Source: Vicinamibacterales bacterium (lineage in GTDB: Bacteria; Acidobacteriota; Vicinamibacteria; Vicinamibacterales; JAMQPK01). Taken from it: 64,000 nucleotides of DNA. The stretch lies in contig CAWGSZ010000009.1 in NCBI GenBank assembly GCA_963825295.1, positions 1,718,329 to 1,782,328 of the forward strand, given 5' to 3'. Below are positions 42,628-56,768 of the stretch, one piece after another. The stretch's first letter is position 1; every line of letters begins with the position of its first letter. The notes beneath the pieces are model-generated. The model did not search any database. It was given only the letters and a program-made list of their open reading frames with translations, and was not told the DNA's origin. A program made the position numbers and the translations under genes.

Positions 42628-43031
42628 CCCCAGCTCGCAAACGTTCATCGAAAAAATTCCCCGCCCAGGTACAGCGGGCCATCGAGGCCGCACAGGATCG
42701 CAAGGCCGTCGACGTCGTGGTACTCGACCTCCGTCCGGCCAACGGGTTCACGGACTACTTCGTGATCATGACCGGCGCCAACACCCGGCAGATTCAGGCC
42801 ATCTCGGACGCCATCCAGGATGCGCTCGGCTCGACCGGCGTGAAGCCGGCGCATGTGGAGGGCGGCGATCGCGCCGGGTGGATCCTGCTCGACTACTTCG
42901 ATTTCATCGTGCATATCTTCAGCCCCGACTCGCGCGCGTTTTACGCATTGGAGCGACTGTGGGGATCTGCCGAACGCATCGACGTGGCTGAACCGAAACC
43001 TCAACGACAGGGACTTGGGATTAGGGATTAG
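42624..43031 (+). CDS. rsfS: Ribosome silencing factor
   Basis: DRKAVDVVVLD, DYFVIMTG, WILLDYFDFIVHIF..R.FYALERLW. Confidence 0.95.
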   Translation: MTPARKRSSKKFPAQVQRAIEAAQDRKAVDVVVLDLRPANGFTDYFVIMTGANTRQIQAISDAIQDALGSTGVKPAHVEGGDRAGWILLDYFDFIVHIFSPDSRAFYALERLWGSAERIDVAEPKPQRQGLGIRD

Positions 43032-43032
43032 G
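43010..43032 (+). repeat. GGGATTA array (left arm of cassette 1); supplies the rsfS C-terminus and stop
   Basis: gggacttgggattagggattagg. Confidence 0.9.
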
Positions 43033-43104
43033 CTGCCGCAGATTTTGAGACAAACATGACGCCAAAGTGCGGCATTTTTTGCTCATGTCCCCCAAACCTC
43101 CACA

Positions 43105-43139
43105 CAAATCCCTGATTCAGTAGTGGGCATGCGCCTTGC
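43105..43139 (+). promoter_or_regulatory. IHF site plus sigma54 -24/-12 motif
   Basis: Reverse complement of 43105-43117 is AATCAGGGATTTG, matching WATCARNNNNTTR. GGGCATGCGCCTTGC at 43125-43139. Confidence 0.7.
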
Positions 43140-43152
43140 CTTCAAAGGCCGC

Positions 43153-43539
43153 ATGACACATATCAATTCGTTCAAAGATCTTGTCGTCTGGCAAGCGAGC
43201 ATGGACCTGGTGGATGTTTGCTTCGACATCGTTGAGGCGATCCAACATCCCTATCGATTCGTTCTTGCTGACCAACTCCTGCCTTCTGGAATTTCGATTC
43301 CTTCCAACATTGCCGAAGGCAGTCGCCGACCAACGAAGGCATACCTCAACCATCTGTCGATTTCGCTCGGCTCGCATGCTGAGGTGGAAACACTGTTCGA
43401 GGTCATCCATCGACGAAGGCTTGTGCCGGAACCGTTGTTGGCAAGGGGCGTGGGAGTCGCGGACCCCGTCGGAAAAATGCTGCACGGCCTTGCTGAATCG
43501 CTGGAATTGCGTCTTGCAAATGAGCGCACGGAGGCGTGA
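43153..43539 (+). CDS. Four-helix-bundle protein (23S rRNA IVP / Avd-like)
   Basis: SFKDLVVWQ, L.DQL..SGISIPSNIAEG, LSISLGSHAEVET. Confidence 0.9.
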   Translation: MTHINSFKDLVVWQASMDLVDVCFDIVEAIQHPYRFVLADQLLPSGISIPSNIAEGSRRPTKAYLNHLSISLGSHAEVETLFEVIHRRRLVPEPLLARGVGVADPVGKMLHGLAESLELRLANERTEA

Positions 43540-44385
43540 CACGCCTGACTGTTCTAATCCCTAATCCCCACTCCCTAATCACTGACGCCACCAGGGTCAC
43601 GGGAAACAGTCTGGTAGCGGCGTTGCTGGCGCCAGCCTGCGCCGTGTGTGACACGGTCCTCGACGAACCCTTGTCCGGCTGCGTGTGCCGAACCTGCTGG
43701 GCAGCTATCAGGCCGATCACTCCGCCGGTGTGCGACGCGTGCGGCGACCCGCTCGCGCGCCGGGCCCAGTCACCACTCACCAGTCTCCGAACACCTGATG
43801 ACACCGAATCCCTAATCCCTAGCCCCCATCCCCAGTCCCTCTGCGCGTTGTGTGGGAGGCATCGCTCCACCATCACTCGCGCACGGGCCGTCGGCGAGTA
43901 CCGAGGGCGCGCTCAGAGACATCATCCACGCGCTGAAGTACGGTGGTCGCCGGTCGCTGGCACGTCCCCTTGCCGCCCTGATGCGCGATCGAGGGGCCGA
44001 ACTTCTCACCGGGGCCGATTGTGTGGTGCCGGTCCCGCTTCACTGGAGGCGGGAATACTCACGCGGCTTCAATCAGGCCCGGGAGCTGTGCCGGCATCTT
44101 GGCTTGCCGGTGGTCGAGGCCTTGCTTCGCGCACGGCACACACGAGCGCAGGTCGAGCTGGTCGCCGATCGCCGCCGGGCAAACGTCGCAGGCGCGTTCC
44201 GCCTGCGTCGCGGTCTGCTGTCCAGGCCGCGCATCTCGGAAACGAAGGTGTTGCTCATCGACGATGTGAGCACGACCGGCGCGACGTTGGAATCCTGTGC
44301 CCGGGTGCTGAAGGAGTCGGGGGCCGCCGAGGTCTTAGCGCTCACGACCGCACGCGTCGTCACGCGCGGCCGCGCCGCCGGGTAG
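43536..44385 (+). CDS. comF: ComF family protein; frameshift near 43900
   Basis: Double zinc ribbon (CAVC, CRTC, CDAC, CALC), VPVPLH..RGFNQ, LLIDDVSTTGATL. Confidence 0.9.
43554..43580 (+). repeat. TAATCCC array (right arm of cassette 1)
   Basis: ctaatccctaatccccactccctaatc, inverted relative to 43010-43032. Confidence 0.9.
43807..43840 (+). repeat. Degenerate AATCCCT array in frame in the comF zinc ribbon
   Basis: Encodes SLIPSPHPQSL between CDAC and CALC. Confidence 0.85.
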
Positions 44386-44446
44386 GCCATTTGCTGCGTA
44401 TGTATTATCTGGCGAAGGCTGCGACGAGACTGAGCGTACGCAGTCC

Positions 44447-45046
44447 CTATTGATCGGGCGTCGACAACCGGGCCGAAACGGCCGCAAACACCTGTTCGGC
44501 GATGGCGTCCCTGGTCTGTTCGCCGTCGATCAGCACCCAGCCGGGCTGGCGGGCCTGCCGCTGATAGCTTTCTCGAACGCGGCCGAGCAGCACCAGGTCG
44601 CGCTCGTATCGATCCCGGTCGTGGGCCTTCCGCCTGGCGGCGGTCTCGGGTGCGATGTCCACGTAAACCGTGAGGCTGGCCGGCGGCAGGAAGCGCTGGA
44701 TGTCTTCCAGCCACGCCGCGTCGAGCCCTTGCGCCTCGCCATACGCGATGCTCGACGCCCGATAGCGATCGCACAGGAGAATCAGCCCGCCGGCCATCCA
44801 TTCGAGGATCGCCTCACGCCGCTCGTGGCGGTTGGCCACAAACAGGAGCTGCATGACGTCGGGTCCGTACTCGCGCTCTCCCTGCAGCGCGCGCGCGATC
44901 TCTTCGCCGATCGACGTCCCGTAATCGGGAAACGAAAGCAGCCGCACCTTGCGGCCGGCCTCGCGCAACCGCTCGCGCAATTGCTGGGCCTGCGTCTCTT
45001 TGCCGCTCTGATCGAGCCCTTCGAACGCAATCAATATGCCGGACAT
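44447..45046 (-). CDS. tmk: Thymidylate kinase
   Basis: IAFEGLDQSGK, LLFVANR, CDRY..SSIAYG. Confidence 0.93.
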   Translation of the reverse strand: MSGILIAFEGLDQSGKETQAQQLRERLREAGRKVRLLSFPDYGTSIGEEIARALQGEREYGPDVMQLLFVANRHERREAILEWMAGGLILLCDRYRASSIAYGEAQGLDAAWLEDIQRFLPPASLTVYVDIAPETAARRKAHDRDRYERDLVLLGRVRESYQRQARQPGWVLIDGEQTRDAIAEQVFAAVSARLSTPDQ

Positions 45047-45056
45047 AGGGTGGGTG

Positions 45057-45112
45057 GAATCTGAATCTAAAATCTAAAATCTAGAAACTAAAATCTGAAA
45101 ACTGGAATCTAG
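45057..45112 (+). repeat. AATCT(A/G)(A/G) heptamer array, about 8 units, containing the lysA stop
   Basis: gaatctgaatctaaaatctaaaatctagaaactaaaatctgaaaactggaatctag. Confidence 0.88.
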
Positions 45113-46353
45113 TTCGTCTCGAGAGAAAGCTGATCGTCAATCGTCTGGCGGCGGCGAATCAGCCTGACCTGGCCGGCGTCCACCAGCACTTCCGGCGGCA
45201 GCGACCGCCGGTTGTAGTTGTTCGACATGGCCGATCCGTAGGCGCCCGCGTCGAAAATCGCCAGGGCATCGCCGACCTCCAGCGCGGGCAGACGGCGATC
45301 GTGGCCGAGCGCGTCGGTCGTCTCGCACACCGGGCCCACGACGTCGTAGCAGATCTCGCGCGCCTGGCGGGGCGTCACCGGCTCGATTCGGTGGAACGAG
45401 CCGTACAGCGCCGGGCGCATCAGCTCGGTCATCCCGGCATCGAGCACGGCGAAGTGACGGCCGCCTGCGGCGGGCTTGATGTCCACCACGCGCCCGACGA
45501 GCACGGCCGACGCGCCAACGATGTATCGTCCCGGCTCGAGCGCGACCGGAAAGCCCGAGGGCGCCACGATGGCAAGGACCGCGGCCGCGTACTCGGCCGC
45601 CGACGGCACACGCGAGCCGTCGTAGGAGATGCCGAGGCCGCCTCCGACATCGATGTGCTCGAGCTGAATCCCCGAGTCGCGCAGCTCCCGCGCCAGCCGC
45701 ACGACCTCGCCTGCCCCGCGCTGAATCGGGTCGGTGCTGATAATCTGCGAGCCCAGATGCACGTGAATCGCGACCGGCTGGAGTCCGGGTTGTGCCGACA
45801 TCCGGCGGTACAGGCCGGCCGCCTGCTCGAGGGGCACACCGAACTTGTTGATGTGGAGGCCCGTGGAAATGTGAGGGTGGGTGCCGGCGTCGATGTCGGG
45901 ATTCACGCGCACGGCTACCCGTGCACGCACGCCTCGCGCCTGGGCCGCGCGATCGATCCGCTCGAGCTCGCCGGCCGATTCCGCGTTGATCGCCTTCAGC
46001 CCGAGCTGGACGGCCCGCTCGATCTCGTCCGGCGACTTGCCGACGCCGCTGAAGACGATGTCGGACGGGGAAAAGCCGGCGCGCAGCGCGAGGTCGACCT
46101 CGCCGATCGAGTTCGCGTCGACACCGCTGCCGATTCCGCACAGCAGGCGCGCGATCGCAAACGATGAGTTCGCCTTCAGCGCGTAATGAATGCGATGCGG
46201 ATGAGACCCGAACGCGGCGTCCAGATCGCGGTACGCGGTGCGGATCGACCCGGCGCTGTAGACGTAGAGGGGCGTACCGTGATCGCGCACGATCTGGTCG
46301 AGCGGCACGCCATCACAGACGAGCACCCCGGCGTCGCGAAAAAAGCCTGACAC
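45109..46353 (-). CDS. lysA: Diaminopimelate decarboxylase
   Basis: GTPLYVYS, YALKAN, HVHLGSQ, DVGGGLG, EPGR, GPVCETTD, GAYG. Confidence 0.95.
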   Translation of the reverse strand: MSGFFRDAGVLVCDGVPLDQIVRDHGTPLYVYSAGSIRTAYRDLDAAFGSHPHRIHYALKANSSFAIARLLCGIGSGVDANSIGEVDLALRAGFSPSDIVFSGVGKSPDEIERAVQLGLKAINAESAGELERIDRAAQARGVRARVAVRVNPDIDAGTHPHISTGLHINKFGVPLEQAAGLYRRMSAQPGLQPVAIHVHLGSQIISTDPIQRGAGEVVRLARELRDSGIQLEHIDVGGGLGISYDGSRVPSAAEYAAAVLAIVAPSGFPVALEPGRYIVGASAVLVGRVVDIKPAAGGRHFAVLDAGMTELMRPALYGSFHRIEPVTPRQAREICYDVVGPVCETTDALGHDRRLPALEVGDALAIFDAGAYGSAMSNNYNRRSLPPEVLVDAGQVRLIRRRQTIDDQLSLETN

Positions 46354-46374
46354 GTGGGAATCTTACACTAGGCT

Positions 46375-46953
46375 ATGATTCAGTCGCCGGTGTCCATCGA
46401 AGCGACCATCCAGCGCGCGGGCGACGGCGACCAGGCCGCGTGGGAAACGATCGTCCGCACCTACTGGCGAAAGGTCTTCAACGTCGCGTACCGCTTCGTT
46501 GGCACCTACGAAGAAGCGGAAGATCTGACGCAGGAGATTTTCCTCAAGGTCTTTCGCTCGCTCAGCACGTTCGACCAGCGGGCGAATTTCCAGACCTGGC
46601 TCATCAGCGTGAGCCGGAACTACTGCATCGATCGTTACCGCAGTGGCCGGCGCGATCGCGAGATCTTCGCGCGCGAGGTGAATGCGGCGGACGTCCAGGC
46701 CGAAGCGCCCGGACCCAGCCCGCACGCGCGGGTCGAACTGCAGGATCGCGTCGCCCTGCTGCGCGAGGCGCTGAGGGGCCTGTCGCCCCCGCTTCGCACG
46801 GCGGTGCTGTTGCGCGACATCCACGAGCTGTCGTACCAGGAAATCGCCAGCCAGCTCGGCGTGGCGGAAGGCACGGTGAAGTCGCGGATCAACCGCGGAC
46901 GGGCGGAGCTGGCAAAACAGATCGAAGCCCTTCGAAAGGAAAAAGGGGTCTGA
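46375..46953 (+). CDS. ECF RNA polymerase sigma factor
   Basis: AEDLTQEIF, FQTWL, LSYQEIA..GTVKSRINRGR. Confidence 0.93.
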   Translation: MIQSPVSIEATIQRAGDGDQAAWETIVRTYWRKVFNVAYRFVGTYEEAEDLTQEIFLKVFRSLSTFDQRANFQTWLISVSRNYCIDRYRSGRRDREIFAREVNAADVQAEAPGPSPHARVELQDRVALLREALRGLSPPLRTAVLLRDIHELSYQEIASQLGVAEGTVKSRINRGRAELAKQIEALRKEKGV

Positions 46954-46958
46954 CCCCT
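46944..46958. repeat. Short palindrome AGGGGTC-T-GACCCCT containing the ECF stop codon
   Basis: Read directly. Shares the GGGGTC end with the 11210/62578 palindromes. Confidence 0.6.
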
Positions 46959-46971
46959 GACAGGAGCGCGC

Positions 46972-47307
46972 ATGAGCGTCACGAGCGAACAATCCGGCGA
47001 TGTGGTCGTGGTCAATGCCGCACCGGCGCGGCTCATCCATCCGTCGTTGTCGGAGTTCTCAAAGGCGGTGACCGGCGAAATCGCCAAAGGGTCGCGCAAG
47101 ATCGTCATCAACTTCGGAGGCGTCGAGTACCTCGACAGCGCCGCCATCGGCTGCCTCATGGACCTGTATCGCCAGGCGACCACCGCCGGCGCCACGCTGA
47201 AGCTGGCGGCGCTGCAGCGCCGGGTCGAGACGATGCTCACCCTGACCGGCGTGAACCAGTTCATGGAAATACACAGCGACGCCGCCACGGCCGTCAAGAG
47301 CTTCTGA
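46972..47307 (+). CDS. STAS-domain anti-anti-sigma factor
   Basis: IVINFGGVEYLDSAAIG. Confidence 0.9.
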   Translation: MSVTSEQSGDVVVVNAAPARLIHPSLSEFSKAVTGEIAKGSRKIVINFGGVEYLDSAAIGCLMDLYRQATTAGATLKLAALQRRVETMLTLTGVNQFMEIHSDAATAVKSF

Positions 47308-47317
47308 GAGACCGATC

Positions 47318-47584
47318 ATGCGCACCATAAAGACGACGACGGGCGCGAGCATCAACCTCGACGGCGATCTTCTGGCCATCCTCGAGACCCTGTACCGCGA
47401 GCTGACGGTGAAGCGGAACTTCGAGCGATCGTTCGAGGATATGATCCAGGAGATCAGGCAGCTCATCGACCAGATGACCGACGAGGAACGCCGCACCTAT
47501 CTCACCGAAAGCCTGTTCCTGAACTCGGTGAAATACGAAAACGACCGGGCCGAGGCACTTATGAGAAAATTGACCAAGAAGTAG
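47318..47584 (+). CDS. Hypothetical helical protein (88 aa)
   Basis: Tight operon spacing and normal codon pattern. Confidence 0.7.
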   Translation: MRTIKTTTGASINLDGDLLAILETLYRELTVKRNFERSFEDMIQEIRQLIDQMTDEERRTYLTESLFLNSVKYENDRAEALMRKLTKK

Positions 47585-47586
47585 CC

Positions 47587-48948
47587 TTGTCTCTCAACTA
47601 CCTTTCAACGAGATTCCAATGCACGTGGCCGTGGAGCACGCTCGTCATGCTCTGCGACGGCCGCATCGTCTGTGGCTGCGCCGATCCGTACGGCAAACGC
47701 GTCCTGGGCGACGCAAAGGTCGCCAGCATCGGCGAAATCTGGAACGACACCCGTATCAGCACGCTGCGCGCCGACCTCAACGCCGGCGGCTCGACCTTCT
47801 GCGGTGACTGCCCGCTGAAGTTGCCGCTCCGTGCCGAAGCGCCGAAGGAACGGTCGCTCGACGCCGGACGGCTGCCCAGCCGGCTGTACATCGAATGCAC
47901 GGCCGCCTGCAACATCTCGTGCACCGAAGCGTGCTGCGCGCCGGAAACCGGCATCACGAAGACCCGCAAGGCGGGGATGCTCGACTTCGATCTGTTCCGG
48001 AATGTCGTGGACGAGGCGGGGCCGGGACTGGTGCGCATCGATTTCTTCAATTACGGCGAGGCCTTCCTGCACAAGCGCGCCATCGAGATGTGCGAGTACA
48101 TCAAGGGACGATTTCCGCACATCTATCTGTACACCAGCACGAACGGCCTGATGTTCACCGAAGAATCGGCGCGCCGGCTCGCCCACTCGGGCATCGACGA
48201 AGTCACCTTCTCGATCGACGGCGCTTCGCAGGAGACCTACGTCCAGTACCGCCAGCGCGGAAAGTTCGATCTCGCCATCCGCAATCTGCGGATCATGGCG
48301 GAGGAGAAGCGGAAATCGAGACGGGACGTTCCGCACCTGAACTGGCGCTACATCCTCTTCAAGTGGAACGACAGCGACGCCGAGATGAATCACGCGCGTC
48401 AGCTGGCGGCCGAGATCGGCGTCGACCGCCTGTCGTGGGAAATCACCGACCATCCCGAAAGCTCGTTCTCGCGCCGCTTCGTGCCCGGCACGCCCGACTT
48501 CGAGACCATCAAGAACGAAATCTGGGACATGACCGGTCTGGGCAATGCCATTCCCGGGGCCACGCCCAGGGCGAAGATCGAGATCCGGAAACGCTTCTTC
48601 CCGACGCGCCCCCTGAAAACGCGCGCCGAGAAAAAGCTGAAGATCAAGACGCGGGTGCAGAACGTCTGCGACCGGCCGTTCCCCGCCAAAGCCTCGTACG
48701 GCCGTCGTCTGGTCCGGCTCGGCGCACAACTGTGCGACGAGGCGGGCACGCTCATCGAGCGCGACTACGCCCGCGCGTGGCTGCCAGAAACGCTCAAGCC
48801 CGGTGCGACGCTCGATGTGCCCATCGAGATCGTGGCGCCCAAGACGCCCGGAAACTACCTGCTGAAGTTCGATCTGGTCAGCGAAGGCATCGACTGGTTC
48901 GAAAACAACGGGTCGCCCACGACGCTGAAGCCCCTCGTCGTCAAGTAG
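47587..48948 (+). CDS. Radical SAM protein with an N-terminal SPASM/twitch-like domain and a C-terminal Ig-like domain
   Basis: CTWPW..DGRIVCGC..CGDC; ECTAACNISCTEACC; NYGEAFLH, TSTNG, FSIDGASQETY; APKTPGNYLLKFDLVSEGIDWF. Confidence 0.85.
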   Translation: MSLNYLSTRFQCTWPWSTLVMLCDGRIVCGCADPYGKRVLGDAKVASIGEIWNDTRISTLRADLNAGGSTFCGDCPLKLPLRAEAPKERSLDAGRLPSRLYIECTAACNISCTEACCAPETGITKTRKAGMLDFDLFRNVVDEAGPGLVRIDFFNYGEAFLHKRAIEMCEYIKGRFPHIYLYTSTNGLMFTEESARRLAHSGIDEVTFSIDGASQETYVQYRQRGKFDLAIRNLRIMAEEKRKSRRDVPHLNWRYILFKWNDSDAEMNHARQLAAEIGVDRLSWEITDHPESSFSRRFVPGTPDFETIKNEIWDMTGLGNAIPGATPRAKIEIRKRFFPTRPLKTRAEKKLKIKTRVQNVCDRPFPAKASYGRRLVRLGAQLCDEAGTLIERDYARAWLPETLKPGATLDVPIEIVAPKTPGNYLLKFDLVSEGIDWFENNGSPTTLKPLVVK

Positions 48949-50045: not shown

Positions 50046-50611
50046 CGTCGCAGCCGGATACGCCGGGACGAGGGGGTGTCGGCGTGAAGAAGCCTGCGCA
50101 TCCTGGCGAGGGCCTGCCGCCGTTCCGTGTCTTCTTCCGATGCGCAGCAATCGGACGGCACGACGACACGATAGTCGCGCATGTGCGCGTCGGCAGCGGT
50201 AAAGAACACGCAGTTGTCGGCCGCGAAGCCCGCGATAACGACCGTGCGCACATCGCCGGCCAGCAGGAGCGTATCGAGCGGTGTTTCGTGAAATCCGGAG
50301 AGGTGGGGCTTCAACACGAAGAAATCGCGCGGCGTCGGCGCAAGAAGCCTCGCGATCGGCGCGCCGGCCCGTCCCGCCTGGCTGCAATCGGCGACGATCG
50401 CCTTGAAATCAGACCGCCAGCGGCCCCAGTTGTCGTTCACGTAGATGACGGGCACGCCTGCAGCGTGAGCACGATCGCGCAATCGCGCGATGTTGGCCGC
50501 GGGACGGAGTGAGCGGCGCGCCAGCACGCCGCCCGCCGGGAAATCGAACAGATTGATGACGTCGACGAGCAGCACGGCCGTCCTGGCGGACGGAAAGACG
50601 GATCTCGCCAT
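50042..50611 (-). CDS. Isochorismatase-family cysteine hydrolase
   Basis: TAVLLVDVIN, VLKPHLSGF, AGFAADNCVFFTAADA. Confidence 0.9.
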   Translation of the reverse strand: MARSVFPSARTAVLLVDVINLFDFPAGGVLARRSLRPAANIARLRDRAHAAGVPVIYVNDNWGRWRSDFKAIVADCSQAGRAGAPIARLLAPTPRDFFVLKPHLSGFHETPLDTLLLAGDVRTVVIAGFAADNCVFFTAADAHMRDYRVVVPSDCCASEEDTERRQALARMRRLLHADTPSSRRIRLRR

Positions 50612-50639
50612 GCCCCCGTCAGGAGCAAACGAAATGCCG

Positions 50640-52298
50640 TCAGTCGAGCCCGAGCGTTATGAGCAGATCGCCGGCCGGAATCGAGACATATTGCTTGCCG
50701 TCTGCCAGATAGCTGATCGCGGAACCATACACCGCGCCGTTGCTGGTAAACGTCCACAGCCGCTCGCCGGTCGTCGCGTCCAGCGCGAAGATGACCCCTT
50801 CCATCGTGCCGCCGAACACCACGTTGCCGGCCGTGCTCATCAGGCCGCCCCAGGGTGGCGTCACGACGCGATGCTCCCACTTGATGTTGCCGGTGGCGGG
50901 GTCGATCGCAATCGCCTTGCCCCAGCTTTCCTCGGGGGCGAAGCGCGGGCCGCGGCCGCGATTGAACAGCTGCTGCGGCGACGGTCCCGGACCGCCGGGC
51001 TCGGTCGTGGGATGTGGGACTTCGTTCTTGGTATAGACGCGCCGTTCTTCGCGGGCGAACACGTAGAGAAGCTTCGTCAGCGGGCTGTAGCTGTGTGCCA
51101 TCCAGTTCGAGCCGCCGTCGATGCCCGGCCACACCTGGTCGTTGCCTTCCGGCGTCGGCTCCATGCCGGGCCTGACGATGGGCCGGCCGTTCTTCTCGAA
51201 GTCGAACCCGTCGTTCCACGTCTGCTTCACGAACGCCTTCGCCGACAGGAATTTTCCGTTGGTGCGATCGATCAGGTAGAAGAACCCGTTGCGGTTCGGC
51301 CACGCGAGCACTTTGCGCGGCTGTCCCAGAAACGTCGTATCGACCAGGACCGGATTCTGCGTCGCGTCCCAGTCGTGCGTGTCGTGCGGCGTGAACTGGT
51401 AGTACCACTTCAGCTTGCCTGTATCAGGATCGAGCGCGAGCACCGAGCACGAATACAGGTTGTCGCCGGCGCGCATATCGTCGAAGTAGTCCGGCCACGG
51501 ATTGCTCGTGCCCCAGAAGAGCGTGTTCGTGTCGGGATCGTACGAACCCGTGTTCCACGTCGAGGCGCCGCCGGTCTTCCACGAATCGCCATTCCAGGTA
51601 CCGAAGTTCGGCTCGCCGGGCTGGGGGATCGTATTGAAGCGCCAGAGACGCTGTCCCGTCTTCGGATCGTAGGCATCGAGGAAGCCGCTGACCCCGCGCT
51701 CGCCGCCGGCCATGCCGACAATCACCTTGTCCTTGACGATGAGCGGCGCGCCGGGAGCGGCATAGCCACCCGCAGCGGTGTGATCGAACATCTGCGTCTT
51801 CCAGAGCTCGCGTCCGGATTTGGCATCAACCGCGATGACGTGCATGTCGAGCGTGTTCATGAACAACGTCGAGCCGAGCATCGCGAGGCCGCGATTCACC
51901 CGTCCGCAGCAGTTGAACGTGCGCTCGGGGTTGCGATGCTCGTACATCCAGAGCTGCCGGCCGGTGACGGCGTCGAGCGCGTAGATGGCGTTCTCGGGTC
52001 GAGTCAGGTACATGATCCCGTCGACGACCAGCGGCGTCGTCTCGAACTTCTCGATGTGGCGGCCCTGAAACAACCATTTGACCCGCAGGTTCTTGACGTT
52101 CTGCGACGTGATCTGGTTCAGGCGGCTGTAGCGCCATCCGCTGTAGCTGCCGGAATACATGAGCCAGTTGCCGGGCTCCTGGTCGGCCTTCAACAGGCGG
52201 TCGGATGTCACCGGCGCGCTCTGGCCGCTCAACGTCCAGGATGCGGCGGTGACGAGAATCGCCGCGATTGTCCACGTTCCGGCTCGCTTCGAGATCAT
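50640..52298 (-). CDS. PQQ-dependent dehydrogenase (alcohol dehydrogenase type)
   Basis: Signal peptide, NWLMYSG, NCCGRVNRG, GMAGGE, YQFTPHDTHDWD, NRNGFFY. Confidence 0.9.
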   Translation of the reverse strand: MISKRAGTWTIAAILVTAASWTLSGQSAPVTSDRLLKADQEPGNWLMYSGSYSGWRYSRLNQITSQNVKNLRVKWLFQGRHIEKFETTPLVVDGIMYLTRPENAIYALDAVTGRQLWMYEHRNPERTFNCCGRVNRGLAMLGSTLFMNTLDMHVIAVDAKSGRELWKTQMFDHTAAGGYAAPGAPLIVKDKVIVGMAGGERGVSGFLDAYDPKTGQRLWRFNTIPQPGEPNFGTWNGDSWKTGGASTWNTGSYDPDTNTLFWGTSNPWPDYFDDMRAGDNLYSCSVLALDPDTGKLKWYYQFTPHDTHDWDATQNPVLVDTTFLGQPRKVLAWPNRNGFFYLIDRTNGKFLSAKAFVKQTWNDGFDFEKNGRPIVRPGMEPTPEGNDQVWPGIDGGSNWMAHSYSPLTKLLYVFAREERRVYTKNEVPHPTTEPGGPGPSPQQLFNRGRGPRFAPEESWGKAIAIDPATGNIKWEHRVVTPPWGGLMSTAGNVVFGGTMEGVIFALDATTGERLWTFTSNGAVYGSAISYLADGKQYVSIPAGDLLITLGLD

Positions 52299-53116
52299 CG
52301 CTCCCCCTTCAACGAGTTCAAGTACGCGACCATGTCTTCCAGATCCTTGCGATCCATCGTCGCGTATGACGGCATCAGCGACGGCTTGTCGAAGCGGATT
52401 TCCCTGACGTTTTCCATGAGAAACGACCGCAGGTTGTCGCGCGTGTCGCGCAACTGGATGGACAGGTCGTCTCGGTTCAGCCGGACGCCGGTGACCGTCT
52501 GCCCCGACTTCAACACGACCTGTACTCCGCGATACGCAATCGGGACGTCCGTCTCGGGTGCCACCAGCGATTCGGCCAGAAATTTCAGACCGCGGCGGCG
52601 TCCGATTTCGGTGAGGTCCGGTCCGAGGCTGCCCCCCTCGCGTCCGATGCGATGACACGTCACACATCCGCGCTTCTCGTAGACGATCCGGCCGGCGGAC
52701 GAATCGCCCGGCGCCTTCTCGAGCAATCCCTGCGATCCAAGCCGTTTGACGAAGCCCACCATCTGCCACACTTCATCGTCGGTGACGCGCACGGGGGCCA
52801 TTTCGCTTCCCGGAATACCGTTGCGAATCGATGCGTAGAGCTCGGGGTCTCGTCCACCCCGCCGGTAGACGCCCGCCGTGAGATCGGCGCCGCGCCCCCC
52901 TTCGCCGAACGAACCGTGGCAGTACGAACAATGCTTCTGAAAGAGCACTTCGCCCGCACGGATATCGGCCTCCGACGAAAACGGATTGACCTCGGGGATA
53001 GACGCCTGTGGAGGTTGCGGTTCCCGGCCCGCCATCGCGGGATTCTGCGGGACCTGCGCGCGCACGACGGAGGTCAGCAGTACGACGCAGCAACAGAGCC
53101 AAAGTATCCGGTGCAT
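52295..53116 (-). CDS. Di-heme cytochrome c
   Basis: CSYCH and CVTCH, GPDLT, SLMP. Overlaps the PQQ gene start. Confidence 0.88.
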   Translation of the reverse strand: MHRILWLCCCVVLLTSVVRAQVPQNPAMAGREPQPPQASIPEVNPFSSEADIRAGEVLFQKHCSYCHGSFGEGGRGADLTAGVYRRGGRDPELYASIRNGIPGSEMAPVRVTDDEVWQMVGFVKRLGSQGLLEKAPGDSSAGRIVYEKRGCVTCHRIGREGGSLGPDLTEIGRRRGLKFLAESLVAPETDVPIAYRGVQVVLKSGQTVTGVRLNRDDLSIQLRDTRDNLRSFLMENVREIRFDKPSLMPSYATMDRKDLEDMVAYLNSLKGER

Positions 53117-53135
53117 GCGGGGAGTATCGCTCATT

Positions 53136-53693
53136 TTAGACCTCGTAAAGAGCCACATCCTCGATTTCAGTGATCTCGACGGTGTCCCCCTTGATGGCCC
53201 CGATGCGAAACCGGTAAAGCCCCCTTGGAGTTTCGCCGGAGATTCGCGCACCGTCTTCGGCCGCGTCGAACACGCTGAGGTGGCAGCCGCATTCGAACAG
53301 GGGATGCGTGGCGGTTCCGCGCACCATCCGGCCGAGCTGGGCCTGGTCGGTCACCAGATCGACCTGACATTGCTCGTGAGGACAGGTGACGCAAAGTGCG
53401 CTCAGCTCTTCGAGCGACACCGGCGCATCAACCGCCCCCGTGGCATTGCCACGACGGAACAGCACTCCGCTGATGAGGACCCTTCGCGGCTGCGCCCTTG
53501 GGGTCGCCGCCGCCATCGCTTCGGCGACGAACGTCACGGGGCGCCAGGGTGTCACGACGGCCTGGGTGGGAATGCTGACCGGCCGCGTCAGCGTGGCGTA
53601 TTTGATCGGAGCGCCTGCAACCTGGGCCCGCGCTCTCCGGCCAAAACCGGCAAGCGCGAGCCAGGTGGCAATGAAGAACCTCCGCGTGTTCAT
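53136..53693 (-). CDS. Tat-exported Rieske [2Fe-2S] protein
   Basis: TRRFF; CPHEQC and FECGCHLSVFD. Confidence 0.85.
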   Translation of the reverse strand: MNTRRFFIATWLALAGFGRRARAQVAGAPIKYATLTRPVSIPTQAVVTPWRPVTFVAEAMAAATPRAQPRRVLISGVLFRRGNATGAVDAPVSLEELSALCVTCPHEQCQVDLVTDQAQLGRMVRGTATHPLFECGCHLSVFDAAEDGARISGETPRGLYRFRIGAIKGDTVEITEIEDVALYEV

Positions 53694-53694
53694 G

Positions 53695-54792
53695 TCACCG
53701 GGATGTTCTCAACGGCGAGGTCGGCGCGGCAACGGTAAGCATGCGAGTGGGATGCGATCCTTTCGGGAACTGAATGCGCCCCTTCTCTTTCTTCGCATCC
53801 ACGTCGAACGCGATGAGCTCGTCGCTGCTGGGACAGTTGACGTACACCGTTTTCGTGTCCTTCGACGTCATGATCCAGTACGGCTGGCGACCCACCGCAA
53901 AGCGCGCGATCTGCTTCGGTGTGTCGCCGGTCACATCGAATACGAACGTCAGGTTGTGGACCACGTCGTTGCTCCACACTTCCCGGCCGTTGTTCGCCAC
54001 AGCGATGCCGTGCGATCGGCTCCTCACCGCCTGCTCGTCGGCCGTCAGCGTATAGGTCGCCTTCGAGATGACCTTGCGCGCCGCCGTATCGATGACCAGG
54101 AAGCCCATGAGATCGTCGACGTTCATGTAGAGCCGCCGGCCATCGGCGCTGATCGTGCCCGGCCGCGGTCCCGATCCGACGGGAATCGTACCAACCGCCT
54201 TGTGCGTGCGCGCGTCGACGACCGTCACCTCTTTGGGCTGGGTTCTGGGCAGGCCGAGCGACTCGCGCGCGAAATGTCCAGGACCGCCGGCAATCGGCAG
54301 GAGATACACGAACCGCCCGTCGGGCGCCATCACCGTGTTGTGCCCGATGCCGAGCGTGTGGATGTATTCGATGATGGCTTCCTTCTGCGTGTCGAACACC
54401 TGCCAGTAGCCGGCATAGGAAGGCTGATACAGGAACCGTCCGTCGGGTGTGACCGCGCCGTTCTGCGGCTCGACGCCGAAGCCGACGTCGAAGGTCTTGA
54501 CCACCTCGTCACGAACCGTGTCGATCAGCGTGACGGTGCCTCCGATCTCGGCGGCGACATACAGCTTGTCCTGCGAGGCAGGCGAGGCCTGGCCGTGCGG
54601 ATGGTTGCCGACCTTGAGCGTCTTGATGTGCTTGAACGTCTTCAAGTCGACGACGGCCACGGTATCGGTGGTTTCAAGCGAGATGTACAGCTTCTCTTGT
54701 GTCGCGCCGGACGGCGGCGAGGGCGTCTGGGCTGTCGAAGAAAACGTGGCCAACCAGATAAGGCCGAGGGCGAGCGGGACATGTCGTCGCAT
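53695..54792 (-). CDS. Exported YncE/YVTN beta-propeller protein
   Basis: Signal peptide; repeats VG..P.G, TPDGRFLY. Confidence 0.85.
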   Translation of the reverse strand: MRRHVPLALGLIWLATFSSTAQTPSPPSGATQEKLYISLETTDTVAVVDLKTFKHIKTLKVGNHPHGQASPASQDKLYVAAEIGGTVTLIDTVRDEVVKTFDVGFGVEPQNGAVTPDGRFLYQPSYAGYWQVFDTQKEAIIEYIHTLGIGHNTVMAPDGRFVYLLPIAGGPGHFARESLGLPRTQPKEVTVVDARTHKAVGTIPVGSGPRPGTISADGRRLYMNVDDLMGFLVIDTAARKVISKATYTLTADEQAVRSRSHGIAVANNGREVWSNDVVHNLTFVFDVTGDTPKQIARFAVGRQPYWIMTSKDTKTVYVNCPSSDELIAFDVDAKKEKGRIQFPKGSHPTRMLTVAAPTSPLRTSR

Positions 54793-54914
54793 GCGTCCTC
54801 CTTCTTGAAGAATCGAGCTTAAAGAATCGAGCCGGGCTTGGGCGCCATAACAATGACATGTGAGACCTGGTTTTGCCAGTTAAGACTGCGCCTTCCGGCC
54901 TATAATCCGCTGTC

Positions 54915-56255
54915 ATGACGCACGACGAAATCGGCGAACGCACCCGCCGGCGAATCATCCGGCGGCTCATGCCGTTCCTGTTCGTCCTGTACGTGTTCAA
55001 CTACATGAACCGGGTCAACGTCGGGTATGCCGCGCTGCAGATGACCGGCGACCTCGGGTTCTCGAACACGGTCTTCGGATTCGGCGCGGGCATCTTCTTC
55101 ATCGGCTATTTCCTTCTGCAGATTCCCTCGACGCTGCTGACAGAGCTCTGGAGCGCCCGCGCCTTCATCACGCTCAGCCTGGTCGTGTGGGGCGCGCTCG
55201 CGGCGCTGTGCGGATTGATCGACACCGCATCCGAGTTCTACTGGGTCCGCTTCTTTCTGGGCATCGCACAGGCCGGGTTCTTTCCGGGTGTCCTCGTCTA
55301 CCTGACGCACTGGTTCCGCTATGAAGATCGCGCCAAGGCGGTGGCGATGTTCATGACGGCCATCCCGGCGTCGAACATGGTGGGCGCCGCGATTGCCGCG
55401 CCGCTGATGCGACTCGACTGGCTTGGCTGGAACGGCTGGCGATGGCTTCTCATTCTCGAAGGACTGCCGACGGTCGCCTTTGGCGCGATCGCGTACTTCT
55501 ATCTGACCGACCGGCCCGCCGACGCGCGCTGGCTCGCAGCCGACGAGCGGGAGTGGATCGACGGCGAGCTCAGGCGCGAACAGGAGCGGAAAGCCAGGGC
55601 GAAGAAGCTGAGCACGCTCGAAGCGCTCCGGCATCCTCAGGTGATCATCCTGGCCCTCTGCTGTTTCTGCTACATCACCAACAGCGTGGGGCTCAGCTCG
55701 TGGCTGCCCAAAATCGTGCAGCGGATTTCCGGTCTCAGCACCACGCAGGTCATTCTGATTTCCGGCATTCCGTGGATGGCGGCCATCCCGATGATGCTCG
55801 TCACAGCGTGGCATTCCGACAAGACCCGCGAGCGGCGCTGGCACGCGGCCATTCCCCTCTTCCTCGTCGGGCTGGCTCTCTCGCTCAGCATCGCCGCCGG
55901 CAATCATCTCGTGTTGGCCATCGCCGCGTTCTCGTTGGCCACGATGGCGCTCTATTCGTTCCCCTCTCCGTTCTGGGCGCTGCCGACCATCTTTCTGAGC
56001 GGCCCCGCCGCGGCCGCCAGCATCGCGCTGATCAATGCGACCGGCAATCTCGGGGGATTCGCCGGACCGTACCTGATCGGGTATCTCGCCGATCGCACGG
56101 GTGGCTATACCGCCGGCCTTCTGTATCTGGTGTTCTGTGGTCTCACCGGGAGCGCCCTGATCCTGTCGCTGAGGGTCGCACGACGCGATGCGGACTGGAC
56201 GAGGAAAGCTGAGGACGCGCACGGGATCGCCGTCGCGCCGAGCGCTGGACGCTGA
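54915..56255 (+). CDS. MFS transporter (ACS/tartrate-phthalate type)
   Basis: RRLMPFL..NRVNVG, GAGIFFIGY, GFFPG..YLTHWF, GWRWL..EGLP. Confidence 0.92.
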   Translation: MTHDEIGERTRRRIIRRLMPFLFVLYVFNYMNRVNVGYAALQMTGDLGFSNTVFGFGAGIFFIGYFLLQIPSTLLTELWSARAFITLSLVVWGALAALCGLIDTASEFYWVRFFLGIAQAGFFPGVLVYLTHWFRYEDRAKAVAMFMTAIPASNMVGAAIAAPLMRLDWLGWNGWRWLLILEGLPTVAFGAIAYFYLTDRPADARWLAADEREWIDGELRREQERKARAKKLSTLEALRHPQVIILALCCFCYITNSVGLSSWLPKIVQRISGLSTTQVILISGIPWMAAIPMMLVTAWHSDKTRERRWHAAIPLFLVGLALSLSIAAGNHLVLAIAAFSLATMALYSFPSPFWALPTIFLSGPAAAASIALINATGNLGGFAGPYLIGYLADRTGGYTAGLLYLVFCGLTGSALILSLRVARRDADWTRKAEDAHGIAVAPSAGR

Positions 56256-56256
56256 T

Positions 56257-56289
56257 TCGTCCATCGTCGATCGTCCATCGTCGATCGTC
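56257..56289 (+). repeat. TCGTC(C/G)A array, about 5 units (downstream arm of cassette 2)
   Basis: tcgtccatcgtcgatcgtccatcgtcgatcgtc. Confidence 0.92.
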
Positions 56290-56302
56290 TGGCGGCATTG
56301 TT

Positions 56303-56683
56303 TTAGTGACGATCTTTCCAGTCGGTGCGCTGTAGATAGTTGATCCAGTTCGTTAACATTCGCCCGATGTGATCGTAGCTGTCGACGTAGCGCGAGTATT
56401 CCGTCCTGGAGATGAGTGATTTCTGGTAGGCGTCTTCGAGATGCCCGATCGTTTCTTGCACAGAGCCTCTGGCTCGACCGAGGTAGACGGCCAGATGTCT
56501 ATCGGTCAGTTGTCCGTAACCTTCGGCCACAAGCGGCGCAACGCGGCTTGTTGAGCGGGACAACTGATCTTTCAGAGTGAAATTTCTGCCAAACACAGGG
56601 CGCTCCAACAGCTCGGAAACTTCACCAGCCATCTTCAGCGCCTTCTTGTAGACCTTGATTTCAGAAAGGCTTCTCGCTCGCAT
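56303..56683 (-). CDS. Four-helix-bundle protein (23S rRNA IVP / Avd-like)
   Basis: LSEIKVYKKA, FTLKDQLSRS...VAEGYG, YLGRARGS.QE, ML..WINYL. Confidence 0.88.
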   Translation of the reverse strand: MRARSLSEIKVYKKALKMAGEVSELLERPVFGRNFTLKDQLSRSTSRVAPLVAEGYGQLTDRHLAVYLGRARGSVQETIGHLEDAYQKSLISRTEYSRYVDSYDHIGRMLTNWINYLQRTDWKDRH

Positions 56684-56696
56684 GCGAGACAGCAAG

Positions 56697-56711
56697 GCAC
56701 AATCCGCGCCA
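56697..56711 (-). promoter_or_regulatory. sigma54 -24/-12 motif
   Basis: Minus strand TGGCGCGGATTGTGC (GG-N10-GC), 13 nt before ATG 56683. Confidence 0.6.
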
Positions 56712-56724
56712 CCACCTCACACCC

Positions 56725-56768
56725 GGACGATGGACGATCGACGATCGACGATCGACGATCGACGATGG
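56725..56768 (+). repeat. T(G/C)GACGA x6 array (upstream arm of cassette 2)
   Basis: Units are exact reverse complements of those at 56257-56289. Confidence 0.92.

What the first reader, a model, noticed from the sequence alone, without database searches (positions are those of the whole stretch)
43010..56768. Candidate new element: four-helix-bundle (Avd-like) gene + sigma54 promoter enclosed by inverted heptamer arrays, found twice with different heptamers
Seen: cassette 1 (43010-43580) is (GGGATTA)n - promoter - gene - (TAATCCC)n. Cassette 2 (56257-56768) is (TCGTCSA)n - gene on the minus strand - (TSGACGA)n. The two proteins are divergent and the heptamers unrelated, yet the architecture is the same. 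Both genes look AT-richer than their neighbours and sit between unrelated genes. Known: this family includes ORFs inside RNase III-excised 23S rRNA intervening sequences and is structurally related to Avd, the RNA-binding RT partner of diversity-generating retroelements. Inference: a mobile or self-excising cassette whose arms pair in read-through mRNA and loop the gene out. It may be the source of the orphan arrays across the window. No RT or transposase lies next to either copy.
Basis: partly seen in the sequence, partly recalled or inferred. Interest (0 to 1): 0.9.

Follow-up and report, generated by a model that had tools for sequence, protein, structure and literature searches.

The report
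Four-helix-bundle gene inside heptad foldback
Two small genes of the "23S rRNA intervening-sequence protein" family each sit in the loop of a long inverted repeat built from tandem 7-base units, and this turns out to be the usual setting of the family across many bacterial phyla, linking two long-unexplained features of bacterial genomes.

Summary
Both window genes are PF05635/TIGR02436 four-helix-bundle (4HB) genes flanked by inverted tandem heptads, each with a sigma54-type promoter 13 nt before the ATG. All 11 family members in this Vicinamibacterales genome look the same by eye, each with a different unit. A strict automatic test is positive for 8/11 here, 24/28 in relatives of the order, 49/76 in about 15 other phyla and 9/16 in five further genomes, against 2/242 shifted controls. 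Five of five finished plasmids that I fetched (Nostoc, Anabaena, Treponema, Bernardetia) also show it.

Arms and gene are inherited together. Protein identity tracks unit similarity, yet the two arms always match each other.

At the two window loci the cassette is orthologous across the genus. Changes seen there are decay by internal deletion, inversion between its arms (G033, G012), and replacement in the nearest relatives by an ordinary terminator hairpin. No near-identical copies or transposase were found, so recent transposition is not supported.

Arm mismatches show no G:U bias, so RNA pairing is unproven.

Best reading: an IVS-like foldback cassette outside rRNA. The boldest reading not excluded is that 4HB proteins are the cognate binders of genome-wide heptad arrays.

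The parts
43009..43032 (+). Cassette 1 upstream arm: about 3.4 tandem heptads, AGGGATT/GGGATTA type
   Evidence: TRF. Pairs with 43554-43580 with an inverted-repeat score of 36. RNA duplex dG is -34.6 kcal/mol.
43033..43125 (+). Leader between the arm and the promoter. It holds a GGCA-N6-TGC motif (43067-43082) and a degenerate inner array in the orientation of the downstream arm (about 43088-43116).
   Evidence: Read. The same layout (outer arm, two GCAnTTTCTGC motifs, inner TAATCCC array, promoter) appears in the orthologs. Function not tested.
43126..43139 (+). Sigma54-type promoter element GGCATGCGCCTTGC, 13 nt before the ATG (implies a leaderless or near-leaderless mRNA)
   Evidence: GGC-N7-KTGC lies 10-17 nt before the in-frame start in 7/11 own copies, against 2/55 shifted controls. 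Conserved in the orthologs. rpoN is present.
43153..43539 (+). Four-helix-bundle gene, 128 aa plus stop (PF05635/TIGR02436)
43554..43580 (+). Cassette 1 downstream arm: about 3.9 heptads, CTAATCC type, starting 15 nt after the stop
56257..56289 (-). Cassette 2 arm on the 3' side of the gene: 4.7 heptads TCGTCCA/TCGTCGA, starting right after the MFS stop codon
56303..56683 (-). Four-helix-bundle gene, 126 aa plus stop (PF05635/TIGR02436)
   Evidence: Orthologs in G033 (78% aa) and G012 (70% aa) lie in the opposite orientation between the same arms.
56697..56710 (-). Sigma54-type promoter element GGCGCGGATTGTGC, 13 nt before the ATG
   Evidence: Equivalent elements sit in the same position in the G033 and G012 orthologs, read.
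56726..56766 (-). Cassette 2 arm on the 5' side of the gene: 5.9 heptads GACGATC (+ strand), ending at the cupin stop codon
   Evidence: score 56; duplex dG -60.3 kcal/mol.

Best explanation
Each locus is a foldback cassette. A PF05635 four-helix-bundle gene carries its own sigma54-type promoter and probably gives a leaderless mRNA. It sits in the loop of a long imperfect inverted repeat whose arms are tandem heptads.

This is the normal genomic setting of the gene family in many phyla. It is also the layout of the ORF-bearing 23S rRNA intervening sequences that gave the family its name.

Shown:
- Arms and gene are inherited as one unit, mostly vertically.
- The unit sequence drifts with the protein, while the two arms stay inverted copies of each other.
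- The arms allow the interior to invert.
- The interior is often lost, which leaves gene-less arms.
- The cassette occupies the same intergenic slot that in the nearest relatives holds an ordinary terminator hairpin.

Inferred: the arms work as a hairpin. In transcripts that read through from neighbouring genes, the arms pair and are cut or terminate, as RNase III cuts the IVS stem. This insulates the loop gene and its neighbours from each other. Slippage of tandem units is the cheap way to keep a long, register-tolerant stem.

It is not a currently active transposon.
For: Architecture is family-wide.
- By eye, 11/11 own copies show it.
- The strict test gives 8/11 own, 24/28 in the order, 49/76 across phyla and 9/16 in five further genomes, against 2/242 shifted controls and 1/1000 random spans.
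- 5/5 fetched finished plasmids and 7/8 viral-contig loci show it.

Geometry fits an RNA unit. The downstream arm starts a median of 5-22 nt after the stop. In other phyla the upstream arm ends a median of 26 nt before the start.

Co-inheritance. Protein identity against unit distance gives Spearman -0.43, permutation p 0.001. Orthologs at rsfS-comF all carry GGGATTA-type arms.

Same slot as a terminator. At the MFS-cupin site, G004 and G009 have a 62-bp GC hairpin followed by a T-run, and G006 has an empty ATGGCAG-type heptad hairpin.

Inversion. The cassette interior is flipped in G033 and G012.

Pairing is feasible. MFE folds pair 30-33 bp between the ends, with z -3.2 and -4.7. RNase III is present in the genome.

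IVS precedent. In Coxiella, RNase III cuts the stem formed by the terminal inverted repeats, and tandem heptamers GACAGAT of variable number precede the S23p ORF (PMC4990558, passages read).
Against: - Arm mismatches show no wobble signature: 77 G:U-type against 74 A.C-type, in either strand sense. Selection on an RNA stem should favour G:U.
- In this genus the promoter lies inside the arms, so the cassette's own transcript carries only the 3' arm.
- With a 400-500 nt loop the pair cannot act as an intrinsic terminator.
- No RNA ends or cleavage could be seen. Only short metagenome contigs were available.
- An insulation role does not explain why this gene family in particular sits in such loops.
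Confidence: 0.45

Rival explanations
1. The heptad arrays are protein-binding sites on double-stranded DNA, and the protein that binds them is the encoded 4HB protein. Each paralog recognises its own heptad family. It autoregulates through its flanking arms and also binds the tens to hundreds of orphan arrays of that family across the genome. This would work like the omega repressor/ParB on contiguous heptads.
For: - The roughly 1000 arrays of G000 fall into about 10 major unit families. The cassette arms map onto them: GGGATTA 147, AAAGTAA 102, ATGGCAG 101, TCGTCGA 64, GATCTAG-like 58, GGGCTGA 33.
- Paralogs are very divergent (13-28% identity), as expected if their specificities differ.
- Unit similarity tracks protein identity.
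- Copy number of GGTAGCY arrays is 51-186 in the 6 genus genomes whose paralog has such arms. It is 0-29 in the 7 genomes without that paralog.
- The unbiased mismatch spectrum fits DNA-level constraint.
- Contiguous heptads as protein-binding arrays have a precedent in pSM19035 omega/parS (PMC9499535 and PMC2441792, listing and abstracts only).
- The authors of the Geobacter genome paper proposed unidentified global regulators for paired tandem 7-9 nt repeats (PMC2700814, passages read).
Against: - No member of PF05635 is shown to bind DNA in anything I read.
- G004 carries the paralog with GGTAGGT arms but has only 7 such arrays genome-wide.
- Arrays of the GGGATTA family persist in genomes that lost the cognate gene.
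- Mapping onto abundant families is also what random draws from the genome's array pool would give. I did not test this statistically.
- The genus genomes are related, so the co-variation may be inheritance rather than function.
- Binding alone does not require the two arms to be inverted.
Confidence: 0.3
2. The cassette is an active mobile element. The arms act as terminal inverted repeats, and the 4HB protein serves mobility, for example by recruiting a host reverse transcriptase or recombinase, as was once proposed for IVSs.
For: - Presence is patchy: rsfS-comF lacks the cassette and any arrays in G016, and MFS-cupin lacks it in the nearest relatives.
- Interior GC is lower.
- In other phyla the cassettes sit in type I R-M operons, beside AbiEii and RhuM, and between cas2 and cas1.
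- IVSs are reported to be horizontally transferred (PMC4990558).
- Similar units of the GARTKMW type flank related proteins in hosts from different phyla.
Against: - No near-identical copies occur within G000.
- Arms differ between paralogs, so no single enzyme could recognise them all.
- No transposase or RT is among the immediate neighbours.
- 4HB orthologs at both loci diverge about as the flanking genes do: 73-79% against RsfS 71-96%, and 78% and 70% against MFS 86% and 79%.
- Losses are internal deletions that leave the promoter and arms behind.
- The multi-copy case in Nostoc flagelliforme is segmental duplication that includes the flanks.
Confidence: 0.1
3. The link is incidental. Heptad arrays pile up in any slack, AT-richer intergenic DNA of repeat-rich genomes, and small accessory genes are simply often bracketed by them.
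For: G000 has 1215 period-7 arrays and 136 inverted pairs, 101 of them with gaps under 100 bp. Inverted arrays also bracket unrelated genes: 2 methyltransferases, a PBP-type transpeptidase, Uma2, topoisomerase IB, a metallophosphoesterase, an ankyrin protein and an aldo-keto reductase. They also bracket rsfS itself.
Against: - About 6 of about 17 gene-sized inverted pairs (gap 230-900 bp) found by the strict k-mer scan enclose 4HB genes, though I found only 12 such genes in a 6.1-Mb genome.
- The association holds in genomes of GC 32-66% from about 15 phyla, where shifted controls in the same loci give 1/135.
- The arms abut the start and stop codons.
Confidence: 0.05

Closest known systems
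ORF-bearing 23S rRNA intervening sequences (Leptospira, Coxiella and others)
   Same: Same protein family (PF05635) in the loop. Terminal inverted repeats form a stem. In Coxiella, tandem heptamers of variable copy number lie just upstream of the ORF, RNase III cuts the stem, and the GC content is lower than the host's (PMC4990558, passages read).
   Different: The cassettes here are not in rRNA. They lie between protein-coding genes. The arms themselves are tandem heptad arrays. In this genus the cassette carries its own sigma54-type promoter. There are 11-12 divergent copies per genome.
Genome-wide heptameric simple repeats
   Same: Intergenic tandem 7-nt arrays in hundreds of copies, some in convergent inverted pairs. 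Examples are the GGGNATC repeats of Xanthomonas and Nostoc, with 70-75 inverted pairs in Xanthomonas (PMC4692102, abstract and passages), and the TAACTGA repeats of Beggiatoaceae (PMC4679880). Cyanobacterial STRR repeats I recall only; I did not read about them here. The GGGATTA family in this genome is of the same G-tract type.
   Different: The parts of those papers that I read do not connect the repeats with any gene family. Here many unit families coexist in one genome, and the inverted pairs that are a gene's length apart preferentially enclose 4HB genes.
Avd, the accessory protein of diversity-generating retroelements
   Same: Four-helix-bundle fold: Foldseek TM 0.73-0.84 to 4DWL and 8UB7.
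   Different: Sequence identity is about 8% and the Foldseek E-value only 0.04-0.07. No RT is among the immediate neighbours, and I did not look for template or variable repeats. Closer structural relatives are Xcc0516 (2GSC) and BT_0352 (2RLD), both of unknown function.
Paired tandem-repeat 'global regulator sites' of Geobacter metallireducens
   Same: Pairs of 3-5 tandem 7-9 nt repeats on opposite strands, in several sequence classes per genome, proposed to bind unknown proteins (PMC2700814).
   Different: In a 4.0-Mb genome of that order (G072) the class-1 pairs lie only about 50-110 bp apart, too close to hold a 4HB gene. The paper's table of adjacent genes is a supplement, which I could not see.
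Omega/ParB-parS heptad arrays of pSM19035; eukaryotic Foldback transposons; REP-type intergenic hairpins
   Same: Contiguous heptads bound cooperatively by a small protein (listing and abstracts only). Long inverted arms made of tandem sub-repeats around a loop that may carry a gene (Foldback elements, recalled). Intergenic hairpins at gene ends (REP elements, recalled).
   Different: Omega is a ribbon-helix-helix protein and is not flanked by inverted arms. Foldback elements are multi-copy with shared arms. REP elements carry no gene. None of these involves PF05635.

Membership tests
PF05635 / TIGR02436 (23S rRNA IVS protein, four helix bundle protein) | Profile score above the curated cut-off | tested here: met
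   72.9 and 62.0 bits against a cut-off of 33.8. 73 and 62.1 bits against a cut-off of 24.
PF05635 / TIGR02436 | Four-helix-bundle fold like Xcc0516 and BT_0352 | tested here: met
   AF2 gives four helices at pLDDT 93.6. Foldseek: 2GSC at TM 0.79-0.88 and 2RLD at TM 0.74-0.87. phmmer: 2GSC at E 6.6e-11.
PF05635 / TIGR02436 | Conserved motif GxxRxxxSxxxNxxE, as given in PMC3936711 | tested here: inconclusive
   Cassette 1 reads SGISIPSNIAEG. The SxxxNxxE part is present, but the Arg position is Ile. E55 and G56 are invariant in alignment A3.
PF05635 / TIGR02436 | Homopentameric ring | not tested
   No complex job was sent. A pass would mostly reflect likeness to 2GSC.
23S rRNA intervening sequence element | Inserted in a helix of the 23S rRNA gene | tested here: not met
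   The flanks are RsfS and ComF, and MFS and cupin.
23S rRNA intervening sequence element | Terminal inverted repeats able to form a stem around the ORF | tested here: met
   Inverted-repeat scores of 36 and 56. 30-33 bp pair in the MFE fold, with duplex dG of -34.6 and -60.3 kcal/mol.
23S rRNA intervening sequence element | Excision of the stem by RNase III | not testable with these tools
   An RNase III gene is present. No usable RNA reads were available.
DGR accessory protein Avd | Adjacent reverse transcriptase with template and variable repeats | tested here: not met
   The immediate neighbours are not RTs. A wider search for an RT or for TR/VR repeats was not done.
Transposon / MITE / foldback mobile element | Several near-identical copies with shared termini in one genome | tested here: not met
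   The 11 copies share 13-28% protein identity with the cassette-1 protein, and each has different arms.
Transposon / MITE / foldback mobile element | Occupied and empty alleles with defined ends or target-site duplication | tested here: inconclusive
   Empty alleles exist (G016 at rsfS-comF; G004, G009 and G015 at MFS-cupin). In them the whole intergenic region differs, or the deletions are internal. No duplication was seen.
Sigma54-dependent promoter | GG-N10-GC elements close to TGGCAC-N5-TTGC at a fixed distance from the start, with rpoN in the genome | tested here: met
   GGC-N7-KTGC lies 12-15 nt before the start in 7/11 own copies, against 2/55 controls. Three more copies deviate at one position (read). 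rpoN is present.
Sigma54-dependent promoter | Upstream activator site and a cognate enhancer-binding protein | tested here: inconclusive
   A recurrent GGCA-N6-TGC motif lies 60-110 nt upstream in most paralogs (read). No activator was identified.
Heptameric simple-sequence repeats | Tandem 7-nt units, mainly intergenic, in many copies genome-wide | tested here: met
   TRF finds 1088 period-7 rows, merging into 1215 arrays and 265 consensus units in about 10 major families. Intergenic placement was not measured genome-wide.

The most novel reading that the evidence does not exclude
PF05635 four-helix-bundle proteins are the long-missing partners of bacterial heptameric repeats. Each paralog would recognise, and perhaps help to spread or homogenise, one family of tandem heptads. 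Its own gene would be the master copy, held between two inverted arrays of that family. The cyanobacterial, Xanthomonas-type and acidobacterial heptamer repeats, the orphan hairpins, and the ORF-bearing 23S rRNA intervening sequences would then all be facets of one protein-repeat system.
Probability: 0.25. Interest if true: 0.92.

Novelty: new variant of a known kind. Interest (0 to 1): 0.8.

Why it matters
The PF05635 family has structures solved in 2006-2007 and thousands of members, but no known function outside DGR Avd. Heptameric tandem repeats have been noted in cyanobacteria, Xanthomonas, Beggiatoaceae and Geobacter, also without a function. The origin of ORF-bearing 23S rRNA intervening sequences is open too.

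A single rule ties the three together: the gene sits in the loop of an inverted heptad foldback, across phyla. That rule gives concrete experiments in cultured, harmless carriers such as Nostoc punctiforme:
- Does the protein bind its arms?
- Are the arms cut in RNA?
- Do the arms flip or delete the gene?

It also matters for annotation. The arms supply start and stop codons to neighbouring genes, break short-read assemblies, and can frameshift genes, as in comF here.

In seven full-text searches of the open literature I found no paper stating this association. Only an incidental note of heptamers in the Coxiella IVS turned up. Subscription journals, family database comments and paper supplements were not visible to me.

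Tried and rejected
1. Read evidence. The best runs hold at most 0.39 of the sampled words. All are short Logan contigs of complex metagenomes, and they break at the arrays. Nothing can be said about expression, RNA ends, excision or inversion.

2. PADLOC. 0 of 4 proteins match a defence model.

3. G:U against A.C mismatch test for an RNA stem. It gave 77 against 74, so no support for RNA-level selection. I count this against the best explanation.

4. Purine-rich upstream arm (71 of 90). I first read this as polarity relative to the gene. It is a property of the inverted repeat itself, which is symmetric under strand flip, so it says nothing about gene orientation.

5. 'One paralog per array family'. 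The mapping is suggestive, but it is also what abundance-weighted random draws would give. I ran no statistical test. G004 is a counter-example.

6. Geobacter paired sites. The pairs in G072 are about 50-110 bp apart, so they do not enclose 4HB genes. The family of G043 held only 4 genomes.

7. Nostoc flagelliforme multi-copy hits. The copies share their flanks (94-100% over 1.1-1.35 kb), which means segmental duplication, not cassette transposition. No record held both flanks without the cassette.

8. The full 10-paralog alignment was too divergent for the search for related loci. The cross-phylum scan therefore used only the 'ADFIAK' subtype (A2). The classical 'IAEG' subtype outside the order was covered only by the five-genome search.

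10. Paper supplements were not opened. Table S4 of PMC2700814, which lists genes next to the repeat sites, may bear on the Geobacter comparison.

Full report
**What is in the window**

Cassette 1 runs from 43009 to 43580 and has these parts:
- about 3.4 tandem heptads of the GGGATTA type (43009-43032)
- a 93-nt leader
- a sigma54-type element GGCATGCGCCTTGC (43126-43139)
- 13 nt, then a 128-codon gene (43153-43539)
- 14 nt, then about 3.9 heptads of the complementary type CTAATCC (43554-43580)

Cassette 2 runs from 56257 to 56766 and has the same plan on the minus strand:
- heptads GACGATC (56726-56766)
- element GGCGCGGATTGTGC (56697-56710)
- 13 nt, then a 126-codon gene (56683-56303)
- heptads TCGTCCA/TCGTCGA (56257-56289)

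Both proteins are clear members of PF05635 and TIGR02436, but share only 22% identity. An AlphaFold model of the first, built on 16 sequences, has pLDDT 93.6 and four helices. It superposes best on Xcc0516 (2GSC) and BT_0352 (2RLD), and then on DGR Avd with a high TM-score but a weak E-value.

The neighbours are RsfS and ComF, and an MFS transporter and a cupin protein. The interiors have GC 0.54 in a genome of GC 0.64. The genome is a 6.1-Mb, 15-contig assembly. Its nearest named relatives are MAGs labelled Vicinamibacterales.

**Is it more than chance?**

I scored the best local inverted repeat between the 450 nt upstream and the 350 nt downstream of a span. For 1000 random spans of this genome the median score is 20 and the 99th percentile is 29. 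Only 1 of 1000 reaches 29 with periodic arms. The two cassettes score 36 and 56.

The genome has 11 PF05635 matches plus one truncated copy found later. Reading their flanks, all 11 lie between inverted tandem arrays, each with a different unit:
- GGGATTA, GCTATCA, TCGTCGA, GGGCTRA, ATGGCAR, CAATTGN, AAAGTAA, CAATGRS and GATCTAG
- a 9-mer, GGTGCGTTG
- an 8-9-mer, GGTTCGTG

I then applied a strict automatic criterion: score of at least 29, both arms of period 6-9, and set purity thresholds. It passes 8 of 11. The three misses are a 5'-truncated gene and two copies with impure arrays.

**Beyond this genome**

PF05635 is found in 18 of 18 sampled genomes of the genus, with 3-19 matches each, and in 7 of 12 genomes from other families of the order. 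Results of the strict test:

| Set | Positive | Notes |
|---|---|---|
| Own genome | 8 of 11 | see above |
| Loci from the order | 24 of 28 evaluable | 1 skipped at a contig end; misses L001, L018, L022, L029 |
| Public species genomes, 'ADFIAK' subtype (80 loci, about 15 phyla) | 49 of 76 evaluable | 4 skipped for short flanks |
| All PF05635 copies of five genomes (Anaerolineales, Verrucomicrobiales, Planctomycetota, Rheinheimera, Flectobacillus) | 9 of 16 evaluable | several arms have period 6 or 8 |
| Same test shifted by 750 nt within the same loci | 2 of 242 | control |

Of the 27 negatives in the 76-locus set, by my reading:
- 13 show period-7 arms on both sides that fall below a threshold
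- 3 have inverted arms of compound period
- 11 show nothing

To exclude MAG artefacts I fetched 5 of the 31 plasmid records with hits. All five are flanked:
- Nostoc punctiforme pNPUN02 (CAATTCG x5 and TTGCGAA x5, flush with the stop codon)
- N. flagelliforme
- Anabaena cylindrica PCC 7122 (between cas2 and cas1)
- Treponema saccharophilum
- Bernardetia

Seven of 8 viral-contig loci are flanked as well. Two pairs of those loci are duplicates.

**Geometry**

The downstream arm begins a median of 5-22 nt after the stop codon in all sets. The upstream arm ends a median of 26 nt before the start in the cross-phylum set, and 133 nt before it in this genome, where the promoter and leader lie in between.

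In many loci of other phyla the heptads (ATGAGTG, ATGAATT and the like) overlap the start and stop codons. In four loci the downstream arm supplies the ATG of a type I restriction HsdR gene.

**Promoter**

A GGC-N7-KTGC element lies 12-15 nt before the in-frame start in 7 of 11 copies here, against 2 of 55 shifted controls. In the order it is found in 8 of 28 against 2 of 140 controls. It is not enriched in other phyla: 4 of 77 against 4 of 361, and 0 of 16. Three more copies in this genome deviate at one position.

The element and its spacing are kept in the orthologs, and rpoN is present. The fixed short spacing implies leaderless or near-leaderless mRNAs. This is an inference.

**History of the two loci**

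*The rsfS-comF locus*, in 24 other genomes of the genus:
- 10 carry a full-length ortholog (73-79% aa identity; RsfS is 71-96%), always with GGGATTA-type arms.
- 3 carry truncated genes.
- In G035, G033, G011, G012 and G015 the gene is deleted, but the promoter, the first codons or the arms remain.
- G016 has rsfS and comF about 100 bp apart with no arrays.
- In G010 the segment holding the 4HB gene and comF is inverted between arrays.
- Part of the output was cut, so G005 was seen only in part.

*The MFS-cupin locus*:
- Only G033 and G012 carry the ortholog (78% and 70% aa identity). In both, the interior is in the opposite orientation between the same TCGTCSA arms.
- The nearest relatives by flank identity (94-99%) have a 62-bp GC-rich hairpin with a T-run (G004, G009), a 15-bp remnant (G015), or 290 bp of other sequence (G017).
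- G006 has an empty hairpin of ATGGCAG-type heptads.

So the cassettes are old residents of their sites, are lost often, and can flip. The slot they fill is elsewhere a terminator slot.

**Arms and gene evolve together**

Over 80 cassettes, protein identity and heptad distance correlate (Spearman -0.43, permutation p 0.001). At 70% identity or more, 61% of pairs have units within one change. Below 35% identity, at most 1% do. Within every cassette the two arms remain inverted copies of each other.

That needs either selection for complementarity or homogenisation between the arms. Mismatches between arms are 77 G:U-type and 74 A.C-type. So the usual signature of a selected RNA helix is absent. 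This favours a DNA-level process or independent constraint on each arm, though slippage among registers weakens the test.

Read-through RNAs would fold with the arms paired: 30-33 bp, duplex dG -34.6 and -60.3 kcal/mol, z -3.2 and -4.7.

**The genomic background**

TRF finds 1215 merged period-7 arrays. There are 136 inverted pairs within 2.5 kb, 101 of them with gaps under 100 bp. The 1003 arrays of at least 21 nt fall into about 10 major unit families, and the cassette arms belong to these families.

Inverted arrays also bracket a few unrelated genes, mostly with the commonest units. About 6 of about 17 gene-sized pairs (gap 230-900 bp) in the strict k-mer scan enclose 4HB genes.

Across the genus, GGTAGCY arrays number 51-186 in the six genomes whose paralog has such arms, and 0-29 in the seven without that paralog. 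But G004, whose paralog has GGTAGGT arms, has only 7 such arrays. The genomes are also related to each other, so the co-variation may reflect inheritance.

**Literature**

- The Coxiella IVS paper reports a 28-bp terminal stem cut by RNase III, and three to four tandem heptamers GACAGAT of strain-variable number before the S23p ORF (PMC4990558, passages).
- Heptamer repeats, with 70-75 convergent pairs, are described in Xanthomonas and Nostoc (PMC4692102, abstract and passages).
- TAACTGA repeats are described in Beggiatoaceae (PMC4679880, passages).
- Paired tandem 7-9 nt repeats are described in Geobacter metallireducens (PMC2700814, passages).
- 23S_rRNA_IVP genes have been noted in cas loci near nucleases (PMC3936711, passage).

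None of the passages I read links the repeats to this gene family. Searches found no paper that does.

**Verdict**

The 'mobile, self-excising' interpretation is only partly supported.

The safest statement is architectural: PF05635 genes live in the loops of inverted heptad foldbacks, of which ORF-bearing 23S IVSs are a special case. How the arms act is open. Candidates are an RNA hairpin for processing or insulation, a DNA operator for the encoded protein, or both. I rank the RNA/insulation reading first (0.45), the cognate-binder reading second (0.3), active mobility third (0.1) and coincidence last (0.05).

Noticed in passing
window 43536-44453, array at about 43800-43840: comF is split. 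The double zinc ribbon is in the frame of 43536, but the phosphoribosyltransferase domain is in the +1 frame (43852-44382). A TAATCCC-type heptad array lies exactly between the two. This may be a frameshift, or a length-variable switch caused by an in-gene array.
   Followed up: partly
window 42417-42452 and 43009-43032: rsfS itself lies between inverted arrays (CCTAATC ... GGGATTA). The upstream arm of cassette 1 therefore does double duty as the right arm of a second, gene-holding pair of opposite polarity.
   Followed up: no
window 40770-40887; also 32851-32942, 34726-34804, 35391-35470 and 45058-45111: Gene-less heptad hairpins and arrays of other families (AAAGTRA/TTCACTT, GATGGGC/CCATTGG, GACTGTC, GGCAGAT, AATCTAA). 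They belong to the roughly 1000 arrays of the genome.
   Followed up: partly
window 43067-43082; the same region in L062-L069 and in the orthologs L032-L050: A recurrent motif, GGCA-N6-TGC with a T-rich spacer, often occurs twice or as a dyad, 60-110 nt upstream of the sigma54-type element, in either orientation. It may be an activator site.
   Followed up: no
L064 (G000:C7:143074-143388): The reading frame of this 4HB copy has no stop before the downstream array. It runs through the array for a 354-codon open frame, which translates the heptads as PHE/PTN repeats.
   Followed up: no
L081, L083, L093, L095, L082, L086: In other phyla the cassette sits inside type I restriction-modification operons: directly upstream of HsdR in four loci, and after HsdS or HsdM. 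It also sits beside AbiEii and RhuM genes. The downstream arm encodes the ATG and first codons of HsdR.
   Followed up: partly
L180 (Anabaena cylindrica PCC 7122 plasmid pANACY.01): A 4HB cassette with AAAAGTA-type arms lies between cas2 and cas1, on the opposite strand.
   Followed up: no
L044 (G010), L043 (G005): At the rsfS-comF locus the segment holding the 4HB gene and comF (G010), or comF alone (G005), is inverted relative to rsfS and bounded by GGGATTA-type arrays. The arrays appear to drive local inversions.
   Followed up: partly
L070 (G000:C9:418139-418573): A twelfth, truncated 4HB copy lies between GAATCTA/AAATCTA-type inverted arrays. The Pfam genome search missed it.
   Followed up: no
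G072 and other genomes of the order of G043: Divergent pairs of GTTGCTYN repeats lie about 50-110 bp apart, with up to 60 matches per genome, in many genomes of that order. This is a separate short paired-repeat element.
   Followed up: partly
L182 (Treponema saccharophilum pTS1); orthologs of cassette 1: The upstream side is often itself a hairpin: an outer array followed by an inner array of the downstream arm's orientation, placed just before the gene or promoter.
   Followed up: no
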